Notes under the pieces: model-generated
What the model was told of the DNA's origin: nothing
The model's database searches: none
The model's input: only the letters and a program-made list of their open reading frames with translations
Assembly (NCBI GenBank): GCA_963826535.1
Contig: CAWGXL010000011.1
Coordinates: 642,080-706,079 of the forward strand
Direction: 5' to 3'
DNA from: an uncultured bacterium
GTDB lineage: Bacteria > Patescibacteriota > Microgenomatia > Levybacterales > UBA12049
DNA length: 64,000 nt
Program-made: the position numbers and the translations under genes
In this document: piece by piece, positions 28,567-44,150 of the stretch
Numbering within the stretch: the stretch's first letter is position 1
How the letters are laid out: every line of letters begins with the position of its first letter

Positions 28567-29265
28567 TTGATTTATACTGTTCAGGTGGAAAGAGACCGTC
28601 CGTTCAAGGAACAATATAGGGATGAGTATAATCGAATTTTGCTTAGAGGAATGAGAGAAAGAGTAAGGGAGGGGAATTTTAAGCCATGGCCTGATCTAGT
28701 AAATGTTAAAGTATATCAGCATGCGTTGGAGCAACATTATGGCAGTTTGGGTGTGCTTGCAGGGAAAAAGTTTTTGGATGTTGGGGCCGGTTTCGGGAGT
28801 AAGCTGCATGAATTTTTAAAGCGGCAAAGAGTAAAAATAACTAATATAGATATTGCGCCGGAATCAATTGAATTTTTAAATAAACATCTACGCGAACCCG
28901 GTTTTGTCGCTGATATTTTTAAGATGGAGCAAGCTGTAGAAGAAAAAGCCTATGATGGTGTGATAGCGGTTAATTTATTCAACTACATTGCGGCTCAAGA
29001 TCGCGAAGATTTGCGTGATTGTTTTAAGCAAGTCCACCGTGCACTAAATGATAGAGGAAGTTTTTTTCAATCGCAATCAGGTTTTATAGCAAAGCAGATA
29101 TCCAGAGATGAGCAGAGGGTAGCTGCTGAGGAAGCAGGATTTGGTGATATACAACTTTTAAAGCTGATGAAAGTTAAGGGGAAGCCAGAGCCTACATATA
29201 TTGAGCCGCTAGCTTTTATTGCCCGAAAAGTAGAGATAAATGAAATAATATTACCTCAAAGTTGA
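28567..29265 (+). CDS. Class I SAM-dependent methyltransferase
   Basis: LDVGAGFGSK motif I and a downstream acidic motif II (YDGVIAVNLFNY). Confidence 0.6.
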   Translation: MIYTVQVERDRPFKEQYRDEYNRILLRGMRERVREGNFKPWPDLVNVKVYQHALEQHYGSLGVLAGKKFLDVGAGFGSKLHEFLKRQRVKITNIDIAPESIEFLNKHLREPGFVADIFKMEQAVEEKAYDGVIAVNLFNYIAAQDREDLRDCFKQVHRALNDRGSFFQSQSGFIAKQISRDEQRVAAEEAGFGDIQLLKLMKVKGKPEPTYIEPLAFIARKVEINEIILPQS

Positions 29266-29844
29266 TGATGTAGAGGCCACCGGTGTTGATTGATTTATAA
29301 TAATTTTTATTCCATAAGCTATTTTCAGTGGAATATTTACTCCTTCGGATATTATGGCGGTTTTGGGTAAAAAATAGAGTGAAGTTTCTTTTTGCAGAGC
29401 GGTGTTACTTACGGTAAATTTTAGAGTAGCGGCTGTGCCTGTGAAATTTAATGGTTTTTCCTGAGGTATCAGGCTGAAAGCGTAGGAAATCCGGCCTGTT
29501 TTTTCATCGTTGTTGTTTAGCAATATATTTGGGTTGGGGAAATTAGGGCCCGGGCTAAGGGAGACATTAGTAAGTATTGCTGGATCATAGGCTAATTCTA
29601 GTTGAAGAATTGTGGGGTACAAACCTTGGGAATTTATTTGTATGCCTGCTTCCTTAGCTTGTCCTCTATTTGAATATATTATTTCAGGAGAAAACGCGAG
29701 TGTACTTTGCGCAGATAGGGTGGGGGAAGGAGTGAAAGTGGGGGTTGGTAATATTTTATTTATTGGTATTATGGAATTTGATTTTATATAGATTGTGAGT
29801 ATAGCTAGTAGGAGTAGAAGGAGGATGATTAATAATTTTGACAT
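29251..29844 (-). CDS. Surface-array paralog: membrane-anchored cohesin-like protein
   Basis: Starts at internal Met MSKLLIILLLLL (the extended ORF runs into a conserved upstream element). PT linker and beta-sandwich region. Confidence 0.4.
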   Translation of the reverse strand: MSKLLIILLLLLLAILTIYIKSNSIIPINKILPTPTFTPSPTLSAQSTLAFSPEIIYSNRGQAKEAGIQINSQGLYPTILQLELAYDPAILTNVSLSPGPNFPNPNILLNNNDEKTGRISYAFSLIPQEKPLNFTGTAATLKFTVSNTALQKETSLYFLPKTAIISEGVNIPLKIAYGIKIIINQSTPVASTSSTLR

Positions 29845-29880
29845 TTGGTTCTGATTGTCCGTTCCCGCCAAAGGCGGACA

Positions 29881-29960
29881 GGCGTGCATTAAATTTTTTT
29901 TGCTGCGAAACTTGCTCTCCCGCTGAGCGGGATTGCTTCGGACAGTCTTGTTGCAAAAAA
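29881..29960. promoter_or_regulatory. Conserved upstream element (hairpin TTTTTTGCTGC...GCTGCAAAAAA) shared with 31250..31330
   Basis: About 80% identity between the two copies, each just upstream of a surface-protein gene. The element embeds a CCCGCTGAGCGGGA hairpin. Confidence 0.5.
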
Positions 29961-30077
29961 TTTTATGCACTCACTCATCTAACAGGTTTGGACTGAGATC
30001 CACCCCAAGGGTACTATCCACTTCGTGGTGTCGCCTCGACTCCCGTTGGTCGCTCGGGATGACCCCGCTATTCGGGG

Positions 30078-31226
30078 TCAATTTCCGCTTTGGGTAGTTA
30101 ATTCGCGTAAGAATAAATTATAGTCTACTTGATTCACTGGACCATCATCGTTTAAATCAGTGAGTAATTTATTTGCGGCAGTACATGCTTTTGGCGGTAG
30201 TAGGTCACTATAACAATCAATGAGGATGCTGTAATCGATTATATTGAGCGTATTGTCGTCGTTTATGTCACCTGCTATTAGGGTAACCGCAGCCAATGTA
30301 TTATTTTGTTGAGGATTAATAGTTTGTATACCGGGAGCGAGGCGGCGCAGGTGAGTTGGGACTTGAATTTTGATGGTGTATTGTCCTTGAATGATTGAAG
30401 CGCCTAAATCGACTTTTCCTGAAAAGTTGCCTTTAACTGAATCATAGTCCAGATTTCCGGAATTACTTGAGACGAACTCGTTTTGGTTATTGTAAATATA
30501 GACTGTTGCCAGTCTTTGTAAATGCTGAGGAGATTTATTGCTAAGGCGGCTGTCGTTGGGATTGGTATTATCACCACTCGCGCCAATACCATGCAAGTAG
30601 GTAGATACATTAAGATAGGTGGTGAGCGAAGGCGCGGAAGGTGTTGGCGTGATAAAGCCCGGAATTTCAACATAAGTAGGTGTTGTTGAAGAAAGAGTAT
30701 TTTCATTTGCGTGGTCAGCTGAGCCAACAGATAATACTAGAGTATTGGCGCCAAAGGAAATAGAGGTGGGGGCGATTCCAGTCGGGCTGAGTGCTCTCAA
30801 TGTTAGTGTACCGACTTTGGTAGTTGTGCGGATCGCTTTTGTTGTATCGGAACCGATGGATAAGGAAATTTTTAAATTGTCGTTATTTAGAACGGGTCCT
30901 TCAAGTACTGTGGGAAAAGCTGCCAAATTGGCTAAAAAGCCGGTCGGTGAGACTTGTAATTTCAATGGGTCAAAGTTGATGTCTAGTTTAACAATAGAGG
31001 TAAGATTTGTTCCCGGGTTCAGCATGATGTCATAGGTGATAATATCTCCAACTTTGGCTTGAAGAGGGCTTGAACTAGAGGCGGTGGGAGTAAAATAAAG
31101 TGTTGTAGATGCAGTAGCCCGGCTTCTAATTTCCTGCCTGTTTTGTATAAGTGATACCAATACCGGTATTCCCACCAGGGCTACAATGAAAATTCCTGCG
31201 ATGATGTATTTTGTTTTATTGTTCAA
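30078..31226 (-). CDS. Surface-array paralog: cohesin-like domain plus C-terminal dockerin-like repeats
   Basis: Signal anchor IAGIFIVALVGIPVLVSLIQNRQEIRSRA. C-terminal DINDDNTLNIIDYSILID...DLNDDGPVNQVDYNLFL dockerin-type repeats. Confidence 0.55.
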   Translation of the reverse strand: MNNKTKYIIAGIFIVALVGIPVLVSLIQNRQEIRSRATASTTLYFTPTASSSSPLQAKVGDIITYDIMLNPGTNLTSIVKLDINFDPLKLQVSPTGFLANLAAFPTVLEGPVLNNDNLKISLSIGSDTTKAIRTTTKVGTLTLRALSPTGIAPTSISFGANTLVLSVGSADHANENTLSSTTPTYVEIPGFITPTPSAPSLTTYLNVSTYLHGIGASGDNTNPNDSRLSNKSPQHLQRLATVYIYNNQNEFVSSNSGNLDYDSVKGNFSGKVDLGASIIQGQYTIKIQVPTHLRRLAPGIQTINPQQNNTLAAVTLIAGDINDDNTLNIIDYSILIDCYSDLLPPKACTAANKLLTDLNDDGPVNQVDYNLFLRELTTQSGN

Positions 31227-31359
31227 AATATTGTTTTCTTTCCCGTTCGTACATGAAAATTTTTTTTGCTGCGAAACTCGCTTCGCTCAAACAGTCTTGC
31301 TGCAAAAAATTTTATGTACTCACTTATTCACTCAATAAATTTACAAATTTTAACTGCAA

Positions 31360-33522
31360 TTATTGTCCGGGTTGCGTTGCGATTTCTCTTAGGAATAAAT
31401 TATAGTCGAATTGATTAACTGAGCCATCATCATTTAGGTCTGATGCATTTTTCTTTTGTAAGTCTGTGCAGGCGGTTGCCGGAAGAAGGTCACTGTAACA
31501 ATCAATCAGAGAATTATAATCGCGTATATCAAGTTGGTTATCGTGTAAGACATCACCTGCGATAAATACGGCATTGGGTAGTTGATTATCTTTTCCGGCT
31601 GTTAAATTTTGAATGCCTGCAAGGAGGCGCGAGAGATGGTTTTCTGTTACTGTCTTTATAGTGTAAGCACCTGACGTAAAGGGTTGAGTAATGACAGCTT
31701 TTCCAACAAACATTCCACTTTGCGAGCTATAATTCATGGTCGTTGCTGAACTGGCAACTAGTTGATTTGAGGCATTAAAGATATTTACGATTAGATTACG
31801 AGTCTCGTGAAGTGGTTTTTTGTTGCTGAAATTTCCGTCAGGATTGGAATTGTCACCTCTAGCTCCGATACCATCAATTAAGCCATTTAATAAGAGGGTG
31901 GTACTGACCGGAGTTGGGGTAGGCGCAGGAACTTGGTAATTCCCGAATATTTTATCCACTACGGCACTGCCGCCGGTTATAGTGATCGGATATTCGATCG
32001 GATTGGTTGGTTTAGTTTGTGTCCATCCGGGTTTGAGAGTTTCTTTTAGGATATATGAGCCATCACAGAGACTTGAGATATTGTAGGTACCTGTTCCATC
32101 GCTGGTGAATGGTTGATTCGCGCCGCTTGAGCTTTGAAGGTTTAGAGTCCAGCCAGAGAGTTTGCTTTCGTTTTGGTCGAAGGCACCATTATTATTCGCG
32201 TCATTGAAGACATATCCGGAAACCGATCCTTTGGCGAAGACTTGAGATATTTGTGTATAGATTTCAATAAGTTGTAATTCGGCGGGAGAGGAGTAGTACT
32301 TGCCACCGGAGAGAGCGGCTATTTGAGTGAGAAAATTAGAAGAGACATCCGATCCCAGACCGATTGTGTAAAAAACAGTTTTGCTGCTATTAAATCCGGT
32401 TTTTACGGCTTCAATTGCAGCGGATTCCGCAGATGATGTTGAGGCGGTTTTACCGTCTATTTTATTTGCTTTTCCATCAGTTAATAGTATTGCTACTTTT
32501 TTGTATCCTGCCCTGCCACTTGCTGATATCTCCGCATTCGCTTTATTTACACCACATTGAATACAAGTCCCGTTGCCGATAGTTAAACCGTCGATCTTAT
32601 TCTTCACAAGATTGAAGTCATTTGTAAATGAACTTACGAGAACAGCATTGGTTTCAAATGAGACAAGAGCAATTCTATTATTGGGATCGGACGCTACCTT
32701 ATCTATAAATAATTTTGCTGCTTCTTTTGCTTTAGTAAATTTCGTACCTTGCATGCTACCTGAGCGGTCAATAATAAGGACTGTATCGGTTGAGGCGTTT
32801 TTACATTGTGTTGGTTGCGGAATGGTGGTAGGGGTTGGTGCAGATGTCGGGGTTGGTGCAGGGCACCACCCGCCGGCCGGTTCAGGGATGAGACACTGTG
32901 GCGTTGCATCCAGACAAGAGGGTTTTGGCGAACATGTAGGCAAAACAGGTTGGCCGATTGAGATTATCGCCGGTTGCGTACTGGATAAAACATTTTCATT
33001 CGGATCGTTGGTACCGATCGCTAAGATTTGTGTGTTTGGACCAAGTGTTACCGACGTAGGAGCTTCGTTGACAGTTGTAGAGCTTAGCGCTTTAAGTTTG
33101 AGAGTTCCTACGCGGGTTACCTGTTGAATAACTTTGGTTAAATCCGGGCCTATAGACAAGTTTACTGTCATTTTTCCGGGTGACACCATGGATACTTCGA
33201 CTACTTGAGCGAAGGCTGTGAGATTTGTCTCAAATGAGCTTGCTGCTGTAATCTCAAATTTTGCAGGGTCATAAATTAAATCAAGTTTTACCTGCGACAC
33301 GGGATTAGTTCCGGGATTTAGAATAATTTCGAGCGGTAAGATATTACCAACCTGAGTCTGTAAAGGTGTGATATCGGAAGATGTTGGAGAAAATAAAAGA
33401 GTGGCTGATTTTTCTGCTCTTCCACGTATTTCTTGTTGCTGGTTGGATAAAAATACGATAGAGGGAATTCCAATTACTGCGATAATTAGTAAGCCGATAA
33501 TTACTTGCTGTTTATTGCGCAT
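31360..33522 (-). CDS. Surface-array paralog: cohesin-like + vWA + SdrD-B-like + dockerin-like
   Basis: vWA MIDAS (IIDRSGSM...LTDGKAN), GYVFNDANNNGAFDQNE Cna-B/SdrD-like, dockerin-like C-terminus. Confidence 0.6.
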   Translation of the reverse strand: MRNKQQVIIGLLIIAVIGIPSIVFLSNQQQEIRGRAEKSATLLFSPTSSDITPLQTQVGNILPLEIILNPGTNPVSQVKLDLIYDPAKFEITAASSFETNLTAFAQVVEVSMVSPGKMTVNLSIGPDLTKVIQQVTRVGTLKLKALSSTTVNEAPTSVTLGPNTQILAIGTNDPNENVLSSTQPAIISIGQPVLPTCSPKPSCLDATPQCLIPEPAGGWCPAPTPTSAPTPTTIPQPTQCKNASTDTVLIIDRSGSMQGTKFTKAKEAAKLFIDKVASDPNNRIALVSFETNAVLVSSFTNDFNLVKNKIDGLTIGNGTCIQCGVNKANAEISASGRAGYKKVAILLTDGKANKIDGKTASTSSAESAAIEAVKTGFNSSKTVFYTIGLGSDVSSNFLTQIAALSGGKYYSSPAELQLIEIYTQISQVFAKGSVSGYVFNDANNNGAFDQNESKLSGWTLNLQSSSGANQPFTSDGTGTYNISSLCDGSYILKETLKPGWTQTKPTNPIEYPITITGGSAVVDKIFGNYQVPAPTPTPVSTTLLLNGLIDGIGARGDNSNPDGNFSNKKPLHETRNLIVNIFNASNQLVASSATTMNYSSQSGMFVGKAVITQPFTSGAYTIKTVTENHLSRLLAGIQNLTAGKDNQLPNAVFIAGDVLHDNQLDIRDYNSLIDCYSDLLPATACTDLQKKNASDLNDDGSVNQFDYNLFLREIATQPGQ

Positions 33523-33636
33523 AGGGCAGATCCACCAGCTGGTTCCGATTAGAACTAAGTTGGCAGATTATTTTCTCTTATTTTAGAATAGACAATACGG
33601 ATGGAGCTGTCAAGTGATCGAGTTGATGTTAAACTT

Positions 33637-35259
33637 TTAAGATTTTAAGCCAAGAAGCAGTTGAAGTAATATAAGAATCTTATTTAATAATTCTAGGATA
33701 ATTTGTATAAAACCTCTATTATCGTTTCTGGTTTTCCTTTCGCTGTCTGGATTTTGTGTATCAATTGTAGTTGGCGATTTGTCTATTCCACCCCTGTCCG
33801 GTGAAGTTGGTGAGGCCGGAGGCGCGAGACAGGAGCCAAGACAATATATGGTTGGGGTAACAATGTAGGGAGAAGCTGGGGGAATGATGGAGACAGATAG
33901 AGGTGGTGTAATACCGGATGGAGGTGCGGTGCTGCCGAATTCGAAGGCACCGATGTCCCAGGCGCTACCCTGCGGTCGGGTGGCATTTGCGTAGTCGTTG
34001 TTGAATCCTGTCAGATTTGCCCCGCGGTTAATAGCCGGACTGCCGGAGAGGAGGTTGAAATCGCCTGCCGCCGCATTCACAAACTCCGGATTGCCGCCGT
34101 TCACGCCAGTGGAGTCGTTAAAGCCGCTAAGAGTGCCCCAGGTGTTGATGCGTGAGATGAAATTGTTGCTGACTTGTACGTTGGGGAACGAGCTGCCGCC
34201 CGAGATGACTTGTCCGTAACTACTTATGCCGCTTGAGGAAATGAAGATGTTGTTCTTGATCTGCGTGCCAGTGTAGTTGCCTTTCCCGGGAGAGTTGTAC
34301 ATGTACATGACAAGGTTGTTGAGCGACCCGACGTTGTAGAACGTGTTGTTGTAGAAGCGGAGATTAGGGATGCCGATATTCATCTGCATGTCCGCGTTGA
34401 CGTAGATATTGTTGCGTATATCCCAATCATGGAAGTCGGGGTCGTTGTTGTTTTCGGTCATCATCATCTGGCCGTTAAAGTTTGTGATGAGGTTTTTTTC
34501 AAAGATAATGTTGTAGGCTTCGCCGCCGTTCACGCCGAAGGTTTGGATAACGTCCATATGAGACGACGATCCGGAAGAGAGCACGATGTCGTGGATATGG
34601 TTCCCACGGATGATGTGCCCGCTGCCCCATGGACGGAATGCGTCAATGTCTTTGGCAGGGCCTATGTCGTTGTTCTCCAAAATGTGATTGGTCCCGGCAA
34701 CGATGAAGACCGTCTTGTCGTCCCCCGGGCCGGTGGCAGCAGAGTAGCTATTGCCTTTTATCAGGTGTCCGCTCCCGGAGATGTCAACAACGCCCCAGTT
34801 GGGTCCCGTGTCGTGGATCTTGTTGTTGAGAAGCTGGTTCGCACTACCCTTCACGGTATTCATGTTGCCCGCCGTGATCTCGAAACCGTCAACAGTAATG
34901 TAGCTGTGTCCTATGTTGAAAGTTCGTATGACAACCGTGCCTGAGGCGCGAAAAGTAATTCTTGCCGAAGCTGTGCCGTTTCGTGCTGAAGAGACGTGCT
35001 CGGCGTAATTTCCCGCGTTAACGATCGCGGTATCGCCTGGCATAATTGTACTGGCGGCTTTCTGGATTGTTTTCCATGGGGAAGCTTCGGTGCCGGGGTT
35101 GGAGTCGTTTCCTGTAGGGGAGACGTAGTAAGTGGTGGATGGGGATGTTTGTGCACTTGCCCGTAGTTTTTGTTGCTGGTTAGATAAAGATAAGATCGCG
35201 GGTATTCCGATTACCGCGATAACTATCAAACTAATTATGGTTAGCAATTTTTTGTGCAT
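33637..35259 (-). CDS. Surface-array paralog: right-handed parallel beta-helix (pectate-lyase-fold) protein
   Basis: Repeated NNxI/HD...GN beta-helix rungs, a ...GSAWDIGAFEF cap and a PT linker. Confidence 0.6.
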   Translation of the reverse strand: MHKKLLTIISLIVIAVIGIPAILSLSNQQQKLRASAQTSPSTTYYVSPTGNDSNPGTEASPWKTIQKAASTIMPGDTAIVNAGNYAEHVSSARNGTASARITFRASGTVVIRTFNIGHSYITVDGFEITAGNMNTVKGSANQLLNNKIHDTGPNWGVVDISGSGHLIKGNSYSAATGPGDDKTVFIVAGTNHILENNDIGPAKDIDAFRPWGSGHIIRGNHIHDIVLSSGSSSHMDVIQTFGVNGGEAYNIIFEKNLITNFNGQMMMTENNNDPDFHDWDIRNNIYVNADMQMNIGIPNLRFYNNTFYNVGSLNNLVMYMYNSPGKGNYTGTQIKNNIFISSSGISSYGQVISGGSSFPNVQVSNNFISRINTWGTLSGFNDSTGVNGGNPEFVNAAAGDFNLLSGSPAINRGANLTGFNNDYANATRPQGSAWDIGAFEFGSTAPPSGITPPLSVSIIPPASPYIVTPTIYCLGSCLAPPASPTSPDRGGIDKSPTTIDTQNPDSERKTRNDNRGFIQIILELLNKILILLQLLLGLKS

Positions 35260-35369
35260 AGGGCAGGGTTTGAAATAATTGACTTAGTATAGTATAGAAA
35301 ATTAGTGTGTATCATTTCAAGTTTAGTCTTTTTGTGCTAGCGGGTCAATATTATTAAGTGTGAACATGG

Positions 35370-37337
35370 TTAATTACTGTAGAGCTGGGATGGGGGGATG
35401 ATTCCTTTGGGTTGAGAGGGGCTGCTCCAGCGTAATTGTATTACAGCATTTCCCTGTTTTTCATAGTACTCGAGTGCGATGGTATATTTTTTCCCGGCAG
35501 TGAGGTTTATTTTTCCACTATTTTCAGTTGAGGCATGGTCAGTCCAATTATTTACAATTCTAATTCCATTTACCCATAGTCTTACGCCGTCATCGCTTTG
35601 GGTATAGAAGGTATATTGTTGAGAGTATTTGGGGATTACATATCCTGTCCAGCGCACAGAGAAATTATTAGCAGGCAGTGATAGGGCAGGTGCACTAGTT
35701 GTCCAGATAAAGTTGATTGCAGGATCAATCCTGGTGAGTGTTGGTGATCCACTGAATGTGCGATTGGGGAAATATGAACCGCTTAGTCCATTTCCCGAGG
35801 GCACAGGAGTTGACGTTGGTATTGAGGTTGGTGTAGCCGTAGGTAGCGGAACAAATGTAGGCGTAGGAGTTGGCGTTGGAATCTGTGTTATTGTTTCCGT
35901 AGGCAACGGTATAGAGGTAGGGGTTGATGTTGGGGTTGACAGGGGGGTGATGGAGGCAGATGGAGATGAAGACGGAGATGGTGTAATAGCGCCGAATTCA
36001 AAGACACCGATATCCCAGGCACTTCCCTGCGGACGCGTGGCATAGGCGTAGTCGTAGTTGAATCCGGGCAGGGTCGCCCCGCGGTCGATTGCGGGACTGC
36101 CTGGGAGAAGGTGGAAGTCGTTTGCTGTCGCATTCACAAACTCCGGATTACCGCCATTTATGCCATTTGAATCGCTAAAGCCGCTCAGGGTTCCCCAGGT
36201 GTTGATGCGGGTGATAAAGTTATTGCTGATCTGGACATTGGAGCCGGAATTTCCAACAGAGAGGACCTGTCCGTAGCTACCTATTCCGCTGGGGGTCACA
36301 AAGATATTGTTTTTGATTTGCGCGCCGCTGTAATTGCTTTTCCCGGAGGCATCATAGAGATACATGATGAGGTTGTTACCCGCACCGGAGTTGTAGACAG
36401 TATTGTTGTAGAAACGTATGTTTGGGATCCCTAGGTTGGCTTGCCCGGAGACTCCAATAAAAATATTATTGCGGAAGTCCCAATCGCGCATGTTGGCAGA
36501 GCCATTTGCTTCAGTCATGAACATTTGCAGTCCGTTGCCATTCGTATTATCGATACGATTATTTTCAAAGACGATATTGTTGGAGGTGGCTCCGCCCAGT
36601 CCGAAGGTCTGGATCACATCCTGATGAGAGGAGGACCCGGAGGAGAGGGAAAGGTCGTGGATGTAGTTTGCCCGGATGATGTTGTTCGTACCCCAGACGC
36701 GGAAAGCGTCAACGTCTTTGCCTGGTCCGACTTCGTTGTTTTCCGCCAGGGAGTTGTTTCCGCCGATTATGAAGATTGCCAGATCATCACCCGGACCGGT
36801 GGAGGAATAATAGTGGTTACCGCGGATTGTCAAGTTGTCTCCATCACCTCTGACGATTCCCGAAGACGCGCCGGTATCATGGATCTTATTGTTTAAGAGT
36901 TCTCCGAAACTTCCGTTCCACGTCATCATGTAACCTTCGTTCGCGCCTGTCATTTCGAAGCCGTCAATAGTGATGTAGTTGTGGTTTATATTGAGGAAGG
37001 TTTGAAGCTTCGCTCCCGGATTCGCCTTGAACGTGATCCGGCTGCCGGACGTACCGCTCCTGACGGTGTTCACTTTTTCATTGTAGGTGCCGGAGTTCAC
37101 GAGCACGGTGTCTCCGCCGACCATAGTACTGGCGGCTTTTTGGATTGTTTTCCATGGAGAGGCTTCGGTGCCGGGGTTGGAGTCATTTCCTGCGGGGGAG
37201 ACGTAGTAGGTGGTGGATGGGGGTGTTTGTGCGCTTGCCCGAAGTTTTTGTTGCTGGTTAGATAAAGATAAGATCGCGGGTATTCCGATAACTGCGATAA
37301 CAATTAAGCCAATAATAACTTGTTGTTTATTGTGCAT
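35370..37337 (-). CDS. Surface-array paralog: parallel beta-helix + PT linker + C-terminal PA14 domain
   Basis: Same N-terminus as 33637..35259. C-terminal GSYF...FSVRWTGYV...YTFYTQSDDGVRLWVNG...YTIALEYYE matches the PA14 consensus. Confidence 0.65.
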   Translation of the reverse strand: MHNKQQVIIGLIVIAVIGIPAILSLSNQQQKLRASAQTPPSTTYYVSPAGNDSNPGTEASPWKTIQKAASTMVGGDTVLVNSGTYNEKVNTVRSGTSGSRITFKANPGAKLQTFLNINHNYITIDGFEMTGANEGYMMTWNGSFGELLNNKIHDTGASSGIVRGDGDNLTIRGNHYYSSTGPGDDLAIFIIGGNNSLAENNEVGPGKDVDAFRVWGTNNIIRANYIHDLSLSSGSSSHQDVIQTFGLGGATSNNIVFENNRIDNTNGNGLQMFMTEANGSANMRDWDFRNNIFIGVSGQANLGIPNIRFYNNTVYNSGAGNNLIMYLYDASGKSNYSGAQIKNNIFVTPSGIGSYGQVLSVGNSGSNVQISNNFITRINTWGTLSGFSDSNGINGGNPEFVNATANDFHLLPGSPAIDRGATLPGFNYDYAYATRPQGSAWDIGVFEFGAITPSPSSSPSASITPLSTPTSTPTSIPLPTETITQIPTPTPTPTFVPLPTATPTSIPTSTPVPSGNGLSGSYFPNRTFSGSPTLTRIDPAINFIWTTSAPALSLPANNFSVRWTGYVIPKYSQQYTFYTQSDDGVRLWVNGIRIVNNWTDHASTENSGKINLTAGKKYTIALEYYEKQGNAVIQLRWSSPSQPKGIIPPSQLYSN

Positions 37338-37457
37338 AGGACAGGGTTATAAGAACTTTATTTAACTTAGCTTAAACTATATTGAGGGTAGGTGTCAAGA
37401 GTTCTGCAAAGTTCTGCTTAGCGGGACAAAGCAGAATTGGAACTGAAAATTGTGAGG

Positions 37458-39209
37458 TTATTCTCCCGGTTGGGTGGCGATTTCTCGGAGGAAGAGATTG
37501 TAATCTATTTGATTTACAAATGAATCATCGTTGAAGTCTGTTTTGGCTTTTAGCCCGGAATCACAAGCTACTGCGGCTGCCAGGTCACTGTAACAGCCTA
37601 AGAGCGAATTATAGTCTAGGATGCTGAGCGCGTTATCGTTGTTGGAATCACCTGCAACCAACGTCACGCTAGGTACGGTATTGGTTTGTCCGGCGGTAAT
37701 AGTCAATATACCGGAGACGAGTTTTTTGAGATGGATATTTGTTTTGACTTTCAGATAATATTTACCTGTTTGGAATGTGTTGGGATAGATCCCGATAGGT
37801 CCTTGAAAGTTTCCTTTTGTGCTATCGTAAGTGAGAGTTCCACGTCCCTGACCAATTAGTTGATTGTCTGAGCTGAAGAGTTCTAAATCGGCAATTATTG
37901 ATTTGTGCAATGGATTTTTGTTGCTTAGATCTGACTGCGCCGGATTTGTATTATCGCCACTATTCCAAATGCCGTGATGATAGACTGTCAACGCGAGAAA
38001 AGTGGTGGCAGGGGTTGGATTGGGAGTCGGTGTATTTGAAGGCTGGGGTGTTGGAGTGCTTGTCGGATTTGGTGTTGGAGTAAGTGTGGGTATTGGCGTA
38101 GAGGTTGGTTTGGGTGTCGGGGTTAATGTCGGAGTTGGTGTTGGGGGAGATACTTTGTTTCCAAAGTTTTTATCGGTAAATGAATTTCCATTTACGATAG
38201 AGATAGTATAGCCATTCGGATCAGCCGGGAGAGTTTGCTGCCAGCCTGGCTGTGGAATTTCTTTGAGAGTGTAATTGCCGTCGCAAATATCAACGAAGCT
38301 GAATGTTCCGGTACTATCGCTAACCAAAGTTTTAGTCGTTGTTGATGAGGTGAGCTGCAATGTCCATCCAGTTAGTTTGGTTTCTGTGGAATCGAAAACC
38401 CCATTTCCATTGGCATCGTTGAATTTAAATCCTCCGATTATGCCTTGGGCGATGATTTGTGATATTTCCTGATAAACGCTGTCTAATTCATTTGGGGCAG
38501 GGAAGTAGAATTTTGCACCAGTTAAAGTAGCAATTTGCTGCAGGAAAGTTCTATTGACATCGCTGCCAAATCCAATTGTGAAGAAAGCTGTTTTGTTGGC
38601 ATTATACCCGTTTTTAGCTGCGTCAACTGCTTTTTGTTCAGCGAGAGAGGTAGATTGTTGGCCTGTAGAGCCATCTATATAATTTGCTTTACCATCTGTT
38701 AACAAAATAACCGCTTTTTTGATCCCTTGTCTTCCATTCGTGGAAATGTCCTGATTCGCTTTTTTAATTGCACATTCTATACAAGTATCTCCATTGGCAA
38801 TAAGTAAGTCAATTTTGGTTTTTACCAGTAAATAATTATTTGTTAGACTACTGTCAACGGTCGCGGAAGAAGCGAACGAAACTAAACCTAATCTATTCCT
38901 ATTATCCTGAGCCATTACATCAACGAATTTTTTCGCGGCATTTTTCGCTTCAGTTAGTTTAGAGCCTTTCATGCTTCCAGACCTGTCAAAGATAAGTACA
39001 ATATCGGTTGGAACGTTTCCGCAAGCTGTGGCTGTAGTTTGATTTTGAGGTGGTATTGCTGTAGGGGCTGGAGCTGTAATCTGGGCTCTTCCTCTTATTT
39101 CCTGTTGTTTTTGGAGGTTTACTATAAGTAATGGTGTTATTATCACAACATAAATCGCTATAACTCCAATTAATAAATAAACTTTTTTCTTATTTATGTA
39201 TTTATGCAT
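37458..39209 (-). CDS. Surface-array paralog: vWA + SdrD-B-like + PT linker + dockerin-like
   Basis: IFDRSGSM...LTDGKAN vWA, PTPTPT linker, dockerin-like C-terminus. Confidence 0.6.
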
Positions 39210-39255
39210 TTTATTTATATAGATTCCCGCCTTCGCGGGAATGACAGGGAAAAGT

Positions 39256-40482
39256 TTAATCTCCGTTTTGCACCGAGAGTTCCCTTAGGAATAAATTGTA
39301 ATCAGGACTGTTAACTATTCCATTATCCTCGATATCGGTGTTTGATGTAAAGGTGGTATGTGCTTTGCAAAAATTAGAGTTATAGATGGAATTCGGATCG
39401 GCAAGAGGCAGCGGATTTATCGCGCCATATCCACAGTCCAGCAATATGTTGTAGTCCAAGACGTTGAGCACATTGTCATCTTTTACATCACCGGCGACTA
39501 AGGTTGTTTTGGGAACCGGGTTTTCCTGGAGATTTTCTATGTTTACAATGCCGGGGGCTAATTTCCGTAGGTATCTGTCTGACTTCATTTTTATACTGTA
39601 ATTTCCGGTTGGGAAGTTTGGGCCAAGATCGATTTTGCCCTCAAAGTTGCCTTTGCCAGGGGTATAGGTTATTGAGCCGGTCAGGCTTTTTACTTCCTGG
39701 TTATTACTGTCTATTATGGTTATGGCAAGATTTCTTTGCGGATGGAGTGGGTTTTTGTTACTAAGGCTTGATCCTTGCGGATTGGGATTGTCTCCGGCTG
39801 AACCAACACCATGTAATAATAAGTCAAATTTGAGTATTGTTGTAGCTTGAGTTGGTCCCGGCGTAATTGCGGGTGTACCTGTTGGATTATTTGTGGGTGC
39901 AGGAGATCCGTTGGCGCTTCCGATATTTAAGTTTGCGGGCGTTGTGGTTGAAAGGATGTTTTCACCAGCTTGATCCGTGGCTCCAGCCGAGAGCACCTGA
40001 GTCAAGGTTGTAAATGTTATTTGAGTAGGTGTGCCATTTGTTGATCCAACAGCTTTGAAGTTTAGGGTGCCAAGTTTAGTGGTTGTTTGGATAGCTTTTG
40101 TGGGATCTCCTCCGATATTGACAGAGGCAGCCAGAGTATCGTTGGTCGTTACAGGGCCTTCTATTGTAACCGGGAACGCGCTGATGTTTGGGACGAAGGG
40201 ATTTGATTGTGTTAGTGAGATTTTCGATGGGTCGTATTTAACTTGAAACCTAACAAAACTTACTAAATTTGTTCCCGGGTTGACCATAATGTCAACTGAG
40301 AAGTTGTCGCCGATGCTTTTTTGAATTGGAGTAGTAGTCGTTGATGCCGGGGTAAATGAAAGAGTTGTCGACACATTTGCCCGGGTCCTGGTTTCTTGTT
40401 TGCGTTGGGTTAGTAATAAGGTAAGTGGAATACTTATGAGGACTATGGCTATTAAAACAAGGAGCAATATTTTTGTGTTCAT
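39256..40482 (-). CDS. Surface-array paralog: cohesin-like + dockerin-like
   Basis: N-terminal anchor; C-terminal [19 protein letters not shown]...[17 protein letters not shown]. Confidence 0.5.
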
Positions 40483-40531
40483 GGACTATATTTTATCGTA
40501 TAAGAGAATAATTGTTGTGTCAAGAGCAGCA

Positions 40532-41362
40532 CTATTGAAAGATTACTGCGAGGACGATTATTATTCCGGGAATAATGAAGACCCAGGGGCTTATATTTGG
40601 GTAGTAGGGCATGGTTGGTGTAGGGTAGGCAGTAGGCGGGCTAATCTGAATTGCGCCGGCCGGTGGTGGCAAATCTTCTCCCGGCACTGTAGAGAAATTG
40701 ATTTCGTCAATGTATATAGGAGGCGGGGGATTGCCTTGTGTTCCTCCGTTGATATCTTTGAATATTATTCCGGTTATTGAGTTTCCAGGCACAGAAAAGG
40801 CGGATATGGGGATATTATATACATACCAGGCTGTGGTAACAGGTACGCCGCCGTATTGTTCCATTGGTACACCGCTCGTTGTAGTATCAGAAGTAGGTGG
40901 TACAGGTTGACCGCCTGCGTCTAATAAATGAATGCCAAACCGCATCCCGGGTCCACCTGCTTGAACATAGAATGTTAGGTAAGTATAAGATGATATATCG
41001 ATGGCTTGGGGCGAGGTAAGTGTCAATTCATCCCAGGGAGCAGTTATAGTATATGCGATCGAATTTGTCCCATTATATACAGGGGCTTGGTTATAGAGGT
41101 CATACGCTGTTGGTCCTCCGTATTTAATCCCTGCAGTCCAATTATTAGCCAGATTATCTAAGACATTGGCGTGAATGCCATAAACGGGTATAACTCCGGC
41201 AGGAACAACTTGAGCGTATTGTTGCATGTTTAAATGTTTTTGAGGTTCACTTAGAATAAGAGGAATGGTTACTAGAAGGGATAAGAAGAGGGCAAGTTTT
41301 AATGTCCTAGTTTTACCTCCATTCTTAATTTTATCAAATAAGTTTTCTATTTTCTTTGTCAC
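40532..41362 (-). CDS. Secreted protein with C-terminal TM anchor
   Basis: N-terminal signal; C-terminal WVFIIPGIIIVLAVIF. Confidence 0.4.
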   Translation of the reverse strand: MTKKIENLFDKIKNGGKTRTLKLALFLSLLVTIPLILSEPQKHLNMQQYAQVVPAGVIPVYGIHANVLDNLANNWTAGIKYGGPTAYDLYNQAPVYNGTNSIAYTITAPWDELTLTSPQAIDISSYTYLTFYVQAGGPGMRFGIHLLDAGGQPVPPTSDTTTSGVPMEQYGGVPVTTAWYVYNIPISAFSVPGNSITGIIFKDINGGTQGNPPPPIYIDEINFSTVPGEDLPPPAGAIQISPPTAYPTPTMPYYPNISPWVFIIPGIIIVLAVIFQ

Positions 41363-41461
41363 CTAATCTAGAATATTAGGGTTTGGGGTAATTGTCAATT
41401 GTTTATTGTTTTATGTTCTGATAAACTACGTTCAGTTACATGAAGGTAGTAAATTTCTTAT

Positions 41462-42031
41462 ATGGTTTTATCTGACCGAGATATTAAAAAATCCCTTACT
41501 GACAAGCGAATCATTATAAAGCCTTTCCCTGATCTTAAGACACAACTTGGATCCTGCTCTATTGACCTTCGGTTGGGAAATAAATTTCGGGTTTTCGAAT
41601 ACAGCCGATATACATTTATTGATCCTTTTAAAAAAGAAATTGGGTCTGAGGTGACGCGGGAGATACGCGTTCCCAATAAAGAGCCATTTATCATTCATCC
41701 GAGTGATTTCGTTTTGGCTGTGACTATTGAACATATTGAGGTGCCGGATGATTTGACAGGCAGGCTTGAGGGAAGATCGAGTATTGGAAGACTCGGAATT
41801 ATTATTCACTCGACGGCCGCAAATATTGAATGCGGTTTCCGGGGAAATATCACTCTTGAGATTGCAAATATGGGGAAGTTACCAGTTGCACTTTATCCTG
41901 GTATGCGAATTTGCTCGGTGTCATTTGAACAGTTGAGTAGTCCTGCAGAAACACCATACTATAAGAAGAAAGATGCCAAGTATATTGGACAAAAGGGCCC
42001 AAATGAAAGCAAAATGCATGAGGAGAAATAG
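41462..42031 (+). CDS. dcd: dCTP deaminase
   Basis: MVLSDRDIKK...SIDLRLGNKF... typical Dcd N-terminus and ~189 aa length. Confidence 0.8.
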   Translation: MVLSDRDIKKSLTDKRIIIKPFPDLKTQLGSCSIDLRLGNKFRVFEYSRYTFIDPFKKEIGSEVTREIRVPNKEPFIIHPSDFVLAVTIEHIEVPDDLTGRLEGRSSIGRLGIIIHSTAANIECGFRGNITLEIANMGKLPVALYPGMRICSVSFEQLSSPAETPYYKKKDAKYIGQKGPNESKMHEEK

Positions 42032-42097
42032 GTAGTATGTAGCATGTATTAAGTATTATGTATGGGACGAAAAGTTTTTCTACAAAATACATAATAC

Positions 42098-42793
42098 ATG
42101 ATACATAATACAAAACATATGAAGTATCATGTTGAGTTTGATATAGACTTTAAGAGAAATCCCTATAAGGGGTTATATGTTGTGCTTGAAGGGATAGACG
42201 GGAGCGGGAAGACAACACAGGTTGAGGAGCTTGTCAGGCATTTTAAGCAACAAGGACGTGAAGTGGTCAGAACCAGGGAGCCGCGTAAAGATGGAAGTAT
42301 GATCGGGGAGTTGGTACAGAAAATTTTGCATGGAAAAACTAAGATACCGCCGGTTGCATTTCAATATCTTTTTAGTGCAGACCGCGAGATGCATCACGCA
42401 GAGCTTGTTGTGCCGGCATTAAATGATGGAAAGATGGTTATTTCCGATCGTTGCTTTTGGTCAGCTATTCCATATGGCTTACTGGATAAAAAATCAGGGC
42501 TTGATGAGAATACAATAGAGTATATGCTAACAGCACAAAGTATTTTATCAATGTATCATCAATTTATTGTTCCTGATGTAACGGTATATTTGGATATTTC
42601 TCTTGGCGAAGCAGTACAGCGAATTAATAAAAGCGGCGGGAAGAGGGAGATTTATGAGGAGCGGGGGAAACTTGAGAAGATTATTAAGGGATATAAGTGG
42701 CTGTTAAATGAATTTCCGAAGGAGTTTGTAGTGATTGATGCTACGAAGTCGGTGGAGGTAGTAACGCGGCAGATAGTAGCAAGTATTAAGTAG
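42098..42793 (+). CDS. tmk: Thymidylate kinase
   Basis: P-loop VLEGIDGSGKTTQ and DRxxxS motif (SDRCFWS). Confidence 0.85.
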   Translation: MIHNTKHMKYHVEFDIDFKRNPYKGLYVVLEGIDGSGKTTQVEELVRHFKQQGREVVRTREPRKDGSMIGELVQKILHGKTKIPPVAFQYLFSADREMHHAELVVPALNDGKMVISDRCFWSAIPYGLLDKKSGLDENTIEYMLTAQSILSMYHQFIVPDVTVYLDISLGEAVQRINKSGGKREIYEERGKLEKIIKGYKWLLNEFPKEFVVIDATKSVEVVTRQIVASIK

Positions 42794-42867
42794 TATATAT
42801 TAAGTATTATGTATAAAGACAGAGGTTTACTACATAATACATGCTACTAGCTACATAATACAGGTTT

Positions 42868-43407: not shown

Positions 43408-43465
43408 ACTTTGAGTTGCTGAGTTTAATAAAATTTGTTAGAATGCACCTTATAATAAATAAAAT

Positions 43466-44023: not shown

Positions 44024-44150
44024 AAGTGAGTTAAATGTGTAAATTAGCTCGGTACCTCTAGTAGATGATTCTCATTCTTTATAAGTATAAAAATAACTGA
44101 TATAGTTTTATCTATTGTAAAATCTTCTTAATTCAACTAAAAATGACTTA

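What the first reader, a model, noticed from the sequence alone, without database searches (positions are those of the whole stretch)
29251..41362. 12-kb tandem array of paralogous cell-surface proteins (cohesin/dockerin-like, vWA, Cna-B, beta-helix, PA14)
Eight consecutive minus-strand genes share a signal-anchor N-terminus (IIGLxIIAVIGIPxIxxLSNQQQxxRxRA). Each has its own TTGACA promoter. They combine adhesion modules in shuffled orders, and five of them end in dockerin-like C-terminal repeats. The array looks like a cellulosome-style or host-attachment surface apparatus diversified by duplication and domain shuffling.
Basis: partly seen in the sequence, partly recalled or inferred. Interest (0 to 1): 0.6.

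Follow-up and report, generated by a model that had tools for sequence, protein, structure and literature searches.

The report
Cohesin/X-dockerin surface adhesin operon in Levybacteria
Eight neighbouring genes of an ultra-small (CPR, Levybacteria-like) bacterium encode a surface protein kit built from the cohesin and dockerin "plug and socket" modules known from cellulosomes, here carrying adhesion (vWA) domains rather than cellulases, and its core is a conserved five-gene operon rather than a recently duplicated array.

Summary
The eight minus-strand genes exist and most domain calls hold: cohesin, dockerin, vWA, SdrD_B/CnaB-like, beta-helix and PA14. Some details are wrong. Four proteins, not five, end in a dockerin. 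The quoted leader is literal in one protein, near-literal in three, loose in six and absent from g1 and g8. An exact TTGACA lies upstream of four genes, not eight.

New findings. The dockerins are part of a ~190-aa X-module+dockerin unit homologous to the type II X-Doc of C. thermocellum CipA. g2 and g7 reproduce CipA's C-terminal Coh-X-Doc architecture. g1 is a ~197-aa cohesin with an N-terminal membrane helix and no leader motif, so it is the likely anchor. g8 is a membrane-tethered CBM-like protein.

The order CohXDoc / vWA-XDoc / [variable slot] / Coh-vWA-XDoc / CohXDoc / TM-cohesin recurs in at least 13 Levybacteria assemblies. The modules group by operon position across genomes, so the paralogs are ancient. 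The beta-helix pair g4/g5 sits in the variable slot, which in relatives holds a GH140-like enzyme, a polysaccharide lyase or SdrD_B proteins.

Best reading: a membrane-anchored, non-cellulosomal cohesin–dockerin adhesion complex with an accessory glycan-active slot. Binding between the modules is inferred, not shown. This is a new variant of a known kind, of moderate interest.

The parts
40532..41362 (-). g8: membrane-tethered CBM-like protein. It has an N-terminal hydrophobic helix, a beta-sandwich at about aa 57-224, a Pro-rich stalk and a near-invariant C-terminal TM helix (PYYPxISPWVFIIPGIIIxLAxIFQ).
   Evidence: No Pfam or NCBIfam hit. The AF2 model has pLDDT 83. Foldseek best match is CBM8 7T7Y (TM 0.81, rmsd 2.5 A), then CBM11/29/30. 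There are 24 homologues and the C-terminal motif is family-specific. It sits at the same operon-upstream position in L001, L012 and L025.
39256..40482 (-). g7 = operon position P1: leader, cohesin (class A), X module, dockerin. The P1 dockerin class has a conserved 12-aa insert between its two Cys.
   Evidence: 43% identical to g2 over its full length. It hits the family cohesin, X and dockerin HMMs. It falls in the P1 orthologue clade and shows the P1 signature.
37458..39209 (-). g6 = P2: leader, vWA (MIDAS DRSGS at aa 75), SdrD_B, Pro/Thr linker, X-dockerin. It has no cohesin.
   Evidence: Pfam VWA 77 bits and SdrD_B 37 bits. MIDAS motif and two Ca loops are present. X-Doc HMM hit. P2 clade.
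35370..37337 (-). g5: leader, right-handed beta-helix (DUF1565 / Pel9A-like cap, choice-of-anchor Q), Pro/Thr linker, PA14. It has no dockerin and lies in the operon's variable slot.
   Evidence: Pfam and NCBIfam hits. The PA14 matches the C. thermocellum RsgI3 PA14 dyad 6QE7 at E 7.6e-76. It is absent from the syntenic operons of relatives. GC is 0.48 here against about 0.40 in the flanks.
33637..35259 (-). g4: a paralogue of g5 (61% identity) without PA14. It ends in a C-terminal amphipathic/hydrophobic helix (…NRGFIQIILELLNKILILLQLLLGLKS).
   Evidence: The same kind of C-terminal tail occurs on the GH140-like slot proteins of L012 and L018, and on L057 and L008 proteins.
31360..33522 (-). 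g3 = P3: leader, cohesin (class A), vWA (MIDAS DRSGS at aa 252), SdrD_B, X-dockerin. The first Ca loop is partly degenerate.
30078..31226 (-). g2 = P4: leader (aa 1-37), cohesin (aa 39-192; nt 30651-31112), X module (aa 200-316; nt 30279-30629), dockerin (aa 317-382; nt 30081-30278).
   Evidence: The AF2 model has pLDDT 85. Foldseek top hits are 3KCP_A and 4FL4, the CipA Coh9-X-DocII fragment (E 6e-15), followed by type I cohesins at TM 0.75. The family profile matches the CipA X-DocII chain 2B59_B at E 1.2e-7. Pfam Dockerin_1 is above cutoff.
29251..29844 (-). g1 = P5: a ~197-aa protein with MSK + TM helix + Pro/Thr linker + cohesin (class B). It has no leader motif and is the putative membrane anchor. 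The true start is Met43 of the listed ORF.
   Evidence: Pfam Cohesin 24.6 bits. The profile of 35 homologues matches CaCohA2 at E 4.9e-9 and also the type II cohesin of SdbA. hhalign against class A cohesins gives 98.9%. 37 homologues lie directly downstream of a CohXDoc gene, and none hits the leader HMM.
33585..33613 (-). Promoter-like site upstream of g3: TTGACA, 17 nt, TATTCT. Similar sites occur at 41370-41398 (g8), 40495-40523 (g7) and TTGACA at 37393-37398 (g5).
31240..31330 (-). Palindromic A/U-flanked hairpin element between g3 and g2. A second copy lies between g2 and g1 (29860-29968). It may be a terminator or attenuator.
   Evidence: The repeat has 2 matches against 0 expected. The fold is -24.7 kcal/mol with z -3.5.

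Best explanation
The locus is a Levybacteria-type (CPR/Patescibacteria) operon for a non-cellulosomal, cohesin/X-dockerin-assembled adhesion complex on the cell surface.

Proposed mechanism:
- g1 stays in the membrane through an uncleaved N-terminal helix and presents a cohesin outside the cell.
- g2, g3, g6 and g7 are exported with a conserved leader (…QQQ[ED]xRx[RK]A) that is probably cleaved.
- Each of these four carries a C-terminal, Ca2+-binding X-module+dockerin unit that plugs into a cohesin.
- g2, g3 and g7 also carry a cohesin, so they can recruit further subunits. g6 has none and can only occupy an end position.
- The functional heads are two vWA domains with intact MIDAS sites on SdrD_B (CnaB-like) stalks. 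These would bind a ligand on a host cell or a particle in a metal-dependent way.
- g8, a membrane-tethered CBM-like module, adds glycan binding.
- g4 and g5 occupy the operon's variable slot. They are beta-helix proteins, one with a membrane-tail and one with PA14, and they add glycan binding or cleavage.

Shown here: the domain identities, the architecture, the conservation of gene order and the position-specific orthology.

Inferred: export and cleavage, cohesin-dockerin pairing, the ligand, and any enzymatic activity of g4/g5.
For: - Domain scans support the assignments.
- The g2 AF2 model (pLDDT 85) matches the CipA Coh9-X-DocII crystal structures 3KCP and 4FL4 over 361 columns at E 6e-15, and single cohesins at TM 0.75.
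- The family profile hits the CipA X-DocII sequence across the end of X plus the dockerin, E 1.2e-7.
- Both EF-hand-like loops are present in all four dockerins, and MIDAS DRSGS is present in g3 and g6.
- The g1 family is a cohesin. It always has an N-terminal TM helix and never the leader motif, whereas the other operon members have the leader.
- The same gene order recurs next to dcd-tmk in at least 13 assemblies.
- X-Doc and cohesin modules cluster by operon position: 58-61% identity within P1, P2 and P3 (50% within P4) against 40-53% between positions. Dockerin signatures are position-specific.
- The X HMM and the dockerin HMM each hit 166 ORFs in 82 loci. The X-Doc unit lies at the extreme C-terminus in hundreds of protein clusters, 511 at E<=1e-30.
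- Among 87 non-redundant X-Doc cargo regions, vWA (27) and SdrD_B (29) are the most frequent families. Many cargoes carry other domains or none recognised.
Against: - No binding data exist, and no complex prediction was possible. The g2 model has pTM 0.47, so no confident intramolecular cohesin-dockerin docking was seen.
- Pfam Dockerin_1 is below cutoff for g3 and g6 and absent for g7. Pfam Cohesin misses g2, g3 and g7. Those assignments rest on family profiles and structure prediction.
- Signal-peptide cleavage and the retention of g1 in the membrane are inferred from motifs only.
- The ligand is unknown.
- The glycan-active genes in the variable slot and the GH5, GH16 and GH114 X-Doc cargoes in relatives leave a degradative role open.
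- The loci were retrieved with a Coh-X-Doc query, so cargo frequencies are biased towards this operon.
Confidence: 0.62

Rival explanations
1. It is a genuine minimal cellulosome: a cohesin-dockerin complex whose main job is to hold polysaccharide-degrading enzymes on a plant-derived or microbial glycan, with vWA and CBM modules serving only to target the substrate.
For: - The parts are cellulosomal in origin.
- The variable slot of the operon carries glycan-active genes: GH140-like apiosidase in L012 and L018, a polysaccharide lyase in L010, and Pel9A/DUF1565-type beta-helix proteins here.
- The g5 PA14 is closely related to the polysaccharide-sensing PA14 dyad of C. thermocellum RsgI3.
- g8 has a CBM fold.
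- Some Levybacteria X-Doc proteins carry GH5, GH16, GH114 or CBM4_9 domains.
Against: - No protein in this locus combines a catalytic domain with a dockerin.
- The slot enzymes lack dockerins and use a C-terminal helix instead.
- No scaffoldin has more than one cohesin, and there is no CBM3 or SLH module.
- The conserved dockerin cargo of the operon is vWA+SdrD_B.
- The beta-helix hits cover only the N-terminal cap of Pel9A, so lyase activity is unproven.
- The slot is empty in L001 and L004.
Confidence: 0.15
2. The cohesin-like and dockerin-like modules do not pair with each other. The proteins are independent secreted or surface adhesins or envelope-layer proteins. The X-Doc unit would be a Ca2+-dependent anchor to something else, such as a cell-wall polymer, an S-layer or a host ligand.
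For: - Non-cellulosomal cohesin and dockerin modules of unknown partner are widespread (my own knowledge: Peer et al. 2009, FEMS Microbiol Lett).
- X-Doc ORFs (166) outnumber the cohesin ORFs in the sampled loci: about 95 of class A and 39 of class B.
- AF2 gave no confident interdomain packing (pTM 0.47).
Against: - Cohesins and X-Docs are co-encoded in a fixed order in every operon copy, with four cohesins to four X-Docs in the full form.
- The TM-cohesin gene is almost always directly downstream of a CohXDoc gene.
- Position-specific conservation of both module types is what co-evolving partners would show.
Confidence: 0.18
3. It is a recently expanded tandem array of interchangeable paralogues, for example for antigenic or phase variation of surface proteins.
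For: The N-terminal leaders of g3, g4 and g5 are near-identical, and g4/g5 are 61% identical. The modules are shuffled between genes.
Against: Each of the four X-Doc genes has its own orthologue clade across ten operons, and within-genome paralogues are no closer than between-genome ones. Gene order is fixed. No repeats or invertible elements flank the genes apart from two short hairpin elements.
Confidence: 0.03

Closest known systems
Type II cohesin / X-dockerin anchoring system of the Clostridium (Acetivibrio) thermocellum cellulosome: the CipA Coh9-X-DocII fragment bound to the SdbA, OlpB or Orf2p cohesins (PDB 2B59, 3KCP, 4FL4)
   Same: g2 and g7 have the same three-module order, cohesin - Ig-like X module - dockerin, and give the best structural match. 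Sequence-profile homology runs through the end of X and the dockerin. There are two EF-hand-like Ca loops. A separate, cell-bound cohesin protein (g1) is present, and its family profile also matches the SdbA cohesin.
   Different: The anchor is a single N-terminal TM helix, not SLH repeats. Each protein carries one cohesin, not nine. There is no CBM3. The dockerin cargo is vWA+SdrD_B adhesin modules, not glycoside hydrolases. X-Doc is the only dockerin type found here, with no X-less type I dockerins. A conserved Cys pair lies between the two dockerin repeats. The host is a CPR bacterium.
Non-cellulosomal cohesin- and dockerin-like modules scattered in bacteria and archaea (my own knowledge: Peer et al. 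2009), including the C. perfringens toxin/GH84 Coh-Doc pairs (PDB 2W1N appears among the hits)
   Same: Cohesin/dockerin used outside cellulose degradation to assemble secreted proteins. The complexes are small, with one or two cohesins.
   Different: Here the modules form a conserved multi-gene operon with equal numbers of cohesins and X-dockerins and a dedicated membrane anchor. The cargo is adhesive rather than enzymatic or toxic.
Sortase-assembled pili of Gram-positive bacteria with vWA tip adhesins (RrgA, SpaC or GBS104 type) and CnaB-fold stalk domains
   Same: vWA with a MIDAS site mounted on CnaB/SdrD_B-type domains. Several subunit genes lie in one operon, and a basal subunit is tied to the cell. 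Pilin structures appear among the weaker fold hits.
   Different: No protein has an LPxTG motif, and no sortase gene is in the cluster. Subunits would be joined non-covalently by cohesin-dockerin contacts, not by isopeptide bonds.
PA14 biomass-sensing domains of C. thermocellum anti-sigma factor RsgI3 (PDB 6QE7)
   Same: The g5 PA14 aligns end to end with both PA14 copies, with roughly half of the residues identical.
   Different: In g5 the PA14 is single and fused to a secreted beta-helix protein, not to a transmembrane anti-sigma factor.

Membership tests
Dockerin (Pfam PF00404; cellulosomal type) | Two tandem ~22-residue segments, each with an EF-hand-like Ca2+ loop (D-x-[ND]-x-[DN]-x3-[NDS]-x2-D) followed by a helix | tested here: met
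   Two loops are present in each of g2, g3, g6 and g7 (sequences). The first loop of g3 has L at position 3, so it is partly degenerate. The AF2 model shows three helices at aa 329-381.
Dockerin (Pfam PF00404; cellulosomal type) | Score above the Pfam gathering threshold | tested here: inconclusive
   g2 scores 28.9 against a cutoff of 22.9 (met). g3 scores 15.3 and g6 13.3, both below. g7 has no hit. All four match the family dockerin HMM built from g2 homologues, and the family profile hits PDB dockerins.
Cohesin (Pfam PF00963) | Beta-sandwich cohesin fold with sequence or profile similarity to known cohesins | tested here: met
   g1 scores 24.6 in Pfam against a cutoff of 24.1. The g1-family profile matches CaCohA2 at E 4.9e-9. 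The g2 N-domain model matches cohesins at TM 0.73-0.77. Class A and class B profiles align with 98.9% probability. Pfam alone misses g2, g3 and g7.
Type II-like X-dockerin dyad | An Ig-like X module immediately N-terminal to the dockerin, inherited with it as one unit | tested here: met
   The profile alignment to 2B59_B spans the last X strands plus the dockerin. 3KCP and 4FL4 are the top fold hits. The X HMM and the dockerin HMM each hit 166 ORFs. The whole 190-aa unit is matched in 511 clusters at E<=1e-30.
Cohesin-dockerin system (functional) | Specific Ca2+-dependent binding between a cohesin and a dockerin of the same organism | not testable with these tools
   Only single-chain prediction is available. 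The inference rests on co-encoding and on position-specific conservation.
Cellulosome | A scaffoldin with multiple cohesins and a cellulose-binding CBM3 | tested here: not met
   Each cohesin-bearing protein has one cohesin. No CBM3 was hit.
Cellulosome | Dockerin-bearing glycoside hydrolases or lyases as the main cargo | tested here: not met
   The dockerin cargo in the locus is vWA+SdrD_B or nothing. g4 and g5 lack dockerins. In relatives only a few of 87 cargo regions are GH5, GH16 or GH114.
Cellulosome | Cell-surface anchoring by SLH repeats or a sortase signal | tested here: not met
   There is no SLH hit and no LPxTG motif. The anchor candidate g1 has an N-terminal TM helix.
vWA adhesin domain | vWA fold with an intact MIDAS motif (DxSxS … T … D) | tested here: met
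   VWA scores 69-77 bits. DRSGS is present at g3 aa 252 and g6 aa 75. LTDG follows downstream (sequence).
Sortase-dependent pilus | C-terminal LPxTG sorting signal and an adjacent class C sortase | tested here: not met
   No [LIV]Px[TSA]G motif occurs in any of the eight proteins. The neighbouring genes are a methyltransferase, dcd, tmk and thyA.
PA14 domain | Pfam PF07691 above threshold | tested here: met
   g5 scores 119 bits. The match to 6QE7 has E 7.6e-76.
Pectate lyase family 9 / right-handed beta-helix lyases | Full-length match that includes the catalytic region | tested here: inconclusive
   The Pel9A-like and DUF1565 hits cover only about 50 N-terminal residues (profile positions 8-66 of 370). 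Beta_helix is below cutoff. choice-of-anchor Q is above cutoff. Catalytic residues were not examined.

The most novel reading that the evidence does not exclude
The operon encodes a non-covalent, defined-order 'cohesin-dockerin pilus'. The full operon has four cohesins (g1, g2, g3, g7) and four X-dockerins (g2, g3, g6, g7). Each falls in its own conserved orthologue class, with the P1 dockerin carrying a distinctive 12-aa insert. One-to-one pairing would give a single hetero-pentameric stalk. It would be rooted in the membrane by g1 and capped by the cohesin-less vWA adhesin g6, and it would display two MIDAS heads. This would be a CPR-specific alternative to sortase pili for gripping a host cell, with an exchangeable enzyme slot alongside.
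Probability: 0.2. Interest if true: 0.75.

Novelty: new variant of a known kind. Interest (0 to 1): 0.55.

Why it matters
CPR/Patescibacteria are thought to live attached to other cells, but the proteins that make the contact are largely unknown outside the Saccharibacteria. In that group a dockerin-domain protein was reported among the essential envelope proteins (PMC10633639).

A conserved operon that reuses cellulosome connectors to mount vWA adhesins on a membrane-anchored cohesin gives a concrete hypothesis for attachment in Levybacteria. It can be tested with recombinant modules alone, without cultivation.

It would also extend the cohesin/X-dockerin principle from enzyme scaffolding to adhesin assembly. 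It supplies four natural cohesin/X-Doc sets, possibly orthogonal, that may be useful as protein-assembly parts.

Tried and rejected
- Recent tandem duplication is rejected. The NJ trees and identity tables show position-specific orthology.
- Sortase pilus is rejected. There is no LPxTG motif and no sortase nearby.
- g8 as a cohesin or a paralogue of the others is rejected. hhalign against the Coh-X-Doc profile gives only 6%, and the fold is CBM-like.
- The g8 C-terminal motif as a general sorting signal is rejected. An HMM and a regex found it only in g8 homologues.
- Two attempts to recover the source record through the exact proteins P0121 and P0145 found nothing. The taxon is therefore inferred from relatives titled Candidatus Levybacteria/Levyibacteriota. 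Many record titles reading 'uncultured Gammaproteobacteria' look like placeholder labels.
- Four literature searches (cohesin/dockerin with CPR, Patescibacteria, Levybacteria, Microgenomates) found no description of this operon.
- A Rfam scan of the window found only four tRNAs.
- Testing cohesin-dockerin docking by structure prediction was not possible. Only single chains native to the window can be folded, and the g2 model gave no confident interdomain packing.

Full report
**What is there**

The region 29251-41362 holds eight consecutive minus-strand ORFs. I call them g1 (29251-29970 as listed) to g8 (40532-41362). The flanking genes are a methyltransferase on one side and dCTP-deaminase-like, thymidylate kinase, a second dCTP-deaminase-like gene and thymidylate synthase on the other. 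GC content rises from about 0.40 to 0.48 across 34-38 kb, which covers g4 and g5.

**Domain checks**

Pfam and NCBIfam give the following:
- g1: Cohesin, 24.6 bits, just over the cutoff of 24.1.
- g2: Dockerin_1, 28.9 bits, over the cutoff.
- g3: VWA + SdrD_B/SpaA, plus a sub-threshold dockerin hit.
- g4: a beta-helix cap (Pel9A-like, DUF1565) and choice-of-anchor Q.
- g5: the same as g4, plus PA14 at 119 bits.
- g6: VWA + SdrD_B, plus a sub-threshold dockerin hit.
- g7 and g8: nothing.

All-against-all BLAST defines the modules:
- g2 and g7 are full-length paralogues (43% identity).
- The N-terminal ~190 aa of g2 is shared with g3 (47%).
- A C-terminal ~190-aa unit is shared by g2, g3, g6 and g7 (39-49%).
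- g3 aa 227-720 matches g6 aa 45-583 (46%).
- g4 and g5 are 61% identical over about 510 aa.

So four proteins end in a dockerin, not five. None has an LPxTG motif. g3 and g6 have an intact MIDAS motif, DRSGS. All four dockerins have two EF-hand-like loops.

**The dockerin is an X-dockerin, and g2/g7 copy the C-terminus of CipA**

I aligned g2 with 56 homologues (A1) and obtained an AF2 model with pLDDT 85. The model shows an N-terminal helix, a beta-sandwich at aa 41-187, a second beta-sandwich at aa 203-320 and three helices at aa 329-381.

Foldseek against the PDB ranks 3KCP_A and 4FL4 first (E 6e-15, about 360 aligned columns). These are the Coh9-X-DocII fragment of the C. thermocellum scaffoldin CipA. 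Isolated type I cohesins follow at TM 0.73-0.77.

The A1 profile also finds the CipA X-DocII chain 2B59_B by sequence alone (E 1.2e-7). That alignment starts inside the X module and runs through both dockerin repeats.

In 82 related loci, an X-module HMM and a dockerin HMM each hit 166 ORFs. A search of 1.84 billion representative proteins with the 190-aa unit returns 511 clusters at E<=1e-30. Almost all match the whole unit at the extreme C-terminus of proteins of 180-1225 aa. The unit is therefore a C-terminal tag used by many secreted proteins of this lineage.

**g1 is a second cohesin class on a membrane helix**

All 37 homologues of g1 in the fetched loci align from its Met43 onwards, so the gene is really 29251-29844. 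The upstream 42 codons of the listed ORF run through a palindromic intergenic element.

The g1 proteins are about 200 aa long. They have the form MSK + a ~20-residue hydrophobic helix + a polar or Pro/Thr linker + a cohesin. A profile of 35 of them matches solved cohesins: CaCohA2 at E 4.9e-9, and also the type II cohesin of SdbA. The same profile aligns with the g2-type cohesin at 98.9% probability.

None of the g1 proteins matches the leader HMM that the other operon proteins match. This fits a signal-anchor that stays in the membrane. That step is inference.

**The leader**

g2 to g7 share a hydrophobic helix with a central Pro, followed by Q-rich …Q[ED]xRx[RKS]A. In A1, Ala37 is invariant and Gln31 and Arg34 are nearly so. 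Small residues at -3 and Ala at -1 fit a signal-peptidase I site. This last point is my reading and was not tested.

g4 and g5 are close. g1 and g8 lack the motif. One unrelated secreted protein in the window, 23411-24094, also carries it.

**Promoters**

An exact TTGACA followed 17 nt later by a TAnnnT hexamer lies upstream of g3, g7 and g8. A further TTGACA lies upstream of g5. On the coding strand there are four copies in 778 intergenic bp against seven in 11,433 coding bp. The window background is 0.41 per kb per strand. The signal is real, but it covers half of the genes. g2 and g1 are instead preceded by a repeated A/U-flanked hairpin element, and g6 by a GC hairpin.

**A conserved operon, not a recent array**

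Contigs encoding close homologues show the same gene order next to dcd-tmk. Annotating 82 loci with the family HMMs gives this order:
- P1: Coh-X-Doc (= g7)
- P2: vWA-SdrD_B-X-Doc (= g6)
- a variable slot
- P3: Coh-vWA-SdrD_B-X-Doc (= g3)
- P4: Coh-X-Doc (= g2)
- P5: TM-cohesin (= g1)

This order appears in full or nearly so in at least 13 assemblies. Most are titled Candidatus Levybacteria/Levyibacteriota or Patescibacteria.

NJ trees and identity tables for ten operons show that the X-Doc modules form four clades by position. Identity is 58-61% within P1, P2 and P3 and 50% within P4, against 40-53% between positions, and paralogues within one genome are no closer than that. The cohesins largely follow the same positional pattern, but P4 splits into more than one branch. 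Dockerin signatures are position-specific. P1 has a conserved 12-residue insert between the two Cys and ends [10 protein letters not shown]2 and P3 end REIATQPGQ. The duplications therefore predate the divergence of these genomes, and the members are not interchangeable.

**The variable slot and g4/g5**

The slot differs between genomes:
- In L001 and L004 it is empty (about 60 bp).
- In L002 and L007 it holds two SdrD_B proteins.
- In L012 and L018 it holds a GH140-like apiosidase + Collagen_bind_2 protein.
- In L010 a polysaccharide lyase + Big_7 protein sits just upstream of P3.
- In the window it holds g5 and g4.

g5-type beta-helix proteins are widespread as stand-alone proteins of about 450 aa. 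One close homologue lies among transposase genes. Together with the raised GC, this points to a lineage-specific insertion followed by duplication.

The C-terminal amphipathic tail of g4 (…NRGFIQIILELLNKILILLQLLLGLKS) recurs on the GH140-like slot proteins and on two other proteins near X-Doc genes. The PA14 of g5 aligns end to end with both PA14 copies of C. thermocellum RsgI3 (6QE7, E 7.6e-76). The Pel9A and DUF1565 matches cover only the N-terminal cap, so lyase activity is not established.

**g8**

g8 has 24 homologues and no known domain. Its AF2 model (pLDDT 83) is a beta-sandwich. The best match is CBM8 (7T7Y, TM 0.81), followed by CBM11, CBM29 and CBM30. A Pro-rich stalk follows, then a nearly invariant C-terminal TM helix that is specific to this family. 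g8 occupies the same upstream position in L001, L012 and L025.

**Cargo of the X-Doc tag in the lineage**

I scanned 87 non-redundant cargo regions from the loci. vWA (27) and SdrD_B (29) were the most frequent families. Smaller numbers carried CBM4_9, Big domains, beta-helix, GH5, GH16, GH114, Spherulin4 and purple acid phosphatase N-domains. The sample is biased towards the operon, because the loci were fetched with a Coh-X-Doc query.

**Interpretation**

The best-supported reading is a membrane-anchored, cohesin/X-dockerin-assembled adhesion complex.
- g1 presents a cohesin at the membrane.
- g2, g3, g6 and g7 are exported and dock through their X-Doc units.
- g2, g3 and g7 can recruit further subunits through their own cohesins.
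- g6 has no cohesin and can only terminate a chain.
- Two MIDAS-intact vWA heads on SdrD_B stalks would bind the target.
- g8, and g4/g5 in the slot, add glycan binding and possibly cleavage.

The module identities, the architecture and the conservation are shown here. Export, pairing, the ligand and any enzyme activity are inferred.

The full operon has four cohesins and four X-dockerins, each in its own conserved class. This invites a stricter model of a defined-order stalk, which I rate at about 0.2.

The rivals are:
- a true degradative mini-cellulosome (0.15). The glycan-active slot and the PA14 and CBM modules favour it. The absence of dockerin-bearing enzymes and of a multi-cohesin scaffoldin argues against it.
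- modules that do not pair with each other (0.18).
- a recent variable array (0.03), contradicted.

**Comparison with what is known**

The parts belong to the cohesin, dockerin and X-module families. The closest system is the type II Coh/X-Doc anchoring pair of C. thermocellum. The locus is not a cellulosome by the defining features tested: no multi-cohesin scaffoldin, no CBM3, no enzyme cargo and no SLH or sortase anchor. It works more like a non-covalent analogue of a vWA-tipped pilus.

Four full-text searches found no description of this operon or of cohesins in Levybacteria. A dockerin-domain protein has been reported among the essential envelope proteins of a cultivated Saccharibacterium (PMC10633639). 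I rate the finding a new variant of a known kind, with interest 0.55.

Noticed in passing
window 30078-39209 (N-termini of g2-g7) and window 23411-24094 (-): A conserved N-terminal leader: a hydrophobic helix with a central Pro, then Q-rich …QQQ[ED][TI]R[SQ][RK]A. It occurs on proteins with unrelated mature domains. 133 ORFs in 82 Levybacteria loci match its HMM. It is much more conserved than ordinary signal peptides, so a lineage-specific processing or sorting step is possible.
   Followed up: partly
window 29942-29968 and 31291-31317 (-); hairpins at 29860-29960 and 31240-31330: A repeated palindromic element (…CATAAAATTTTTTGCARCAAGACTGT…GCAGCAAAAAAAATTT…) sits between g3/g2 and g2/g1, with 2 copies against 0 expected. 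It folds into an A/U-flanked hairpin (-24.7 kcal/mol, z -3.5). It may be a bidirectional terminator or attenuator that sets subunit ratios. The listed GTG start of g1 lies inside it.
   Followed up: partly
window 40532-40615 (C-terminus of g8): The last ~26 residues of g8 (PYYPxISPWVFIIPGIIIxLAxIFQ) are more conserved than its ectodomain across 24 homologues. L004 has a 116-aa version that keeps only the N- and C-terminal helices. This suggests a specific intramembrane partner.
   Followed up: partly
window 33637-33720 (C-terminus of g4); L012:6424-8139, L018:5562-7238, L057:425-1819, L008:1324-3399: A shared C-terminal amphipathic/hydrophobic tail ([KRN]G[FL][FIL]xx[IL]xx[FL][FL]…LF[R]) follows a polar Pro-rich linker on proteins with different catalytic domains (beta-helix, GH140-like, unknown). 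All are encoded in or next to Coh/X-Doc operons. It could be a lineage-specific tail anchor or an oligomerisation helix.
   Followed up: partly
window 35370-35822 (PA14 of g5): This PA14 domain is unusually close to the PA14 dyad of the Clostridium thermocellum anti-sigma factor RsgI3 (6QE7, E 7.6e-76), with roughly half of the residues identical. That hints at module exchange between Firmicutes and CPR, or at strong constraint on the domain.
   Followed up: partly
window 34000-38000: GC is 0.48 against about 0.40 in the flanks, coinciding with g4/g5. These two genes are absent from the syntenic operons of relatives. A close g5 homologue elsewhere lies among transposase genes (L082).
   Followed up: partly
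window 41462-45185 (+): Two dCTP-deaminase-like paralogues flank thymidylate kinase and are followed by thymidylate synthase. This nucleotide-metabolism block is syntenic with the Coh/X-Doc operon in L001, L002 and L004.
   Followed up: no
window 48854-49951 (-): A further vWA-domain protein (365 aa, VWA 58 bits) lies outside the cluster. It has no X-Doc and no leader hit.
   Followed up: no
window 39212-39255 (-): A GC-rich hairpin (AUUCCCGC-GAAG-GCGGGAAU, -13.7 kcal/mol, z -3.4) fills most of the 46-bp g7-g6 spacer. No TTGACA lies upstream of g6, so g6 is probably co-transcribed with g7.
   Followed up: no
loci L006-L081 (record titles): Many contigs carrying this clearly Levybacteria-type operon are titled 'uncultured Gammaproteobacteria bacterium' (binchicken/SRP co-assembly MAGs), or Lysobacterales, Methylomirabilota or Sulfotelmatobacter. 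These labels are probably placeholders or mis-binned contigs.
   Followed up: no
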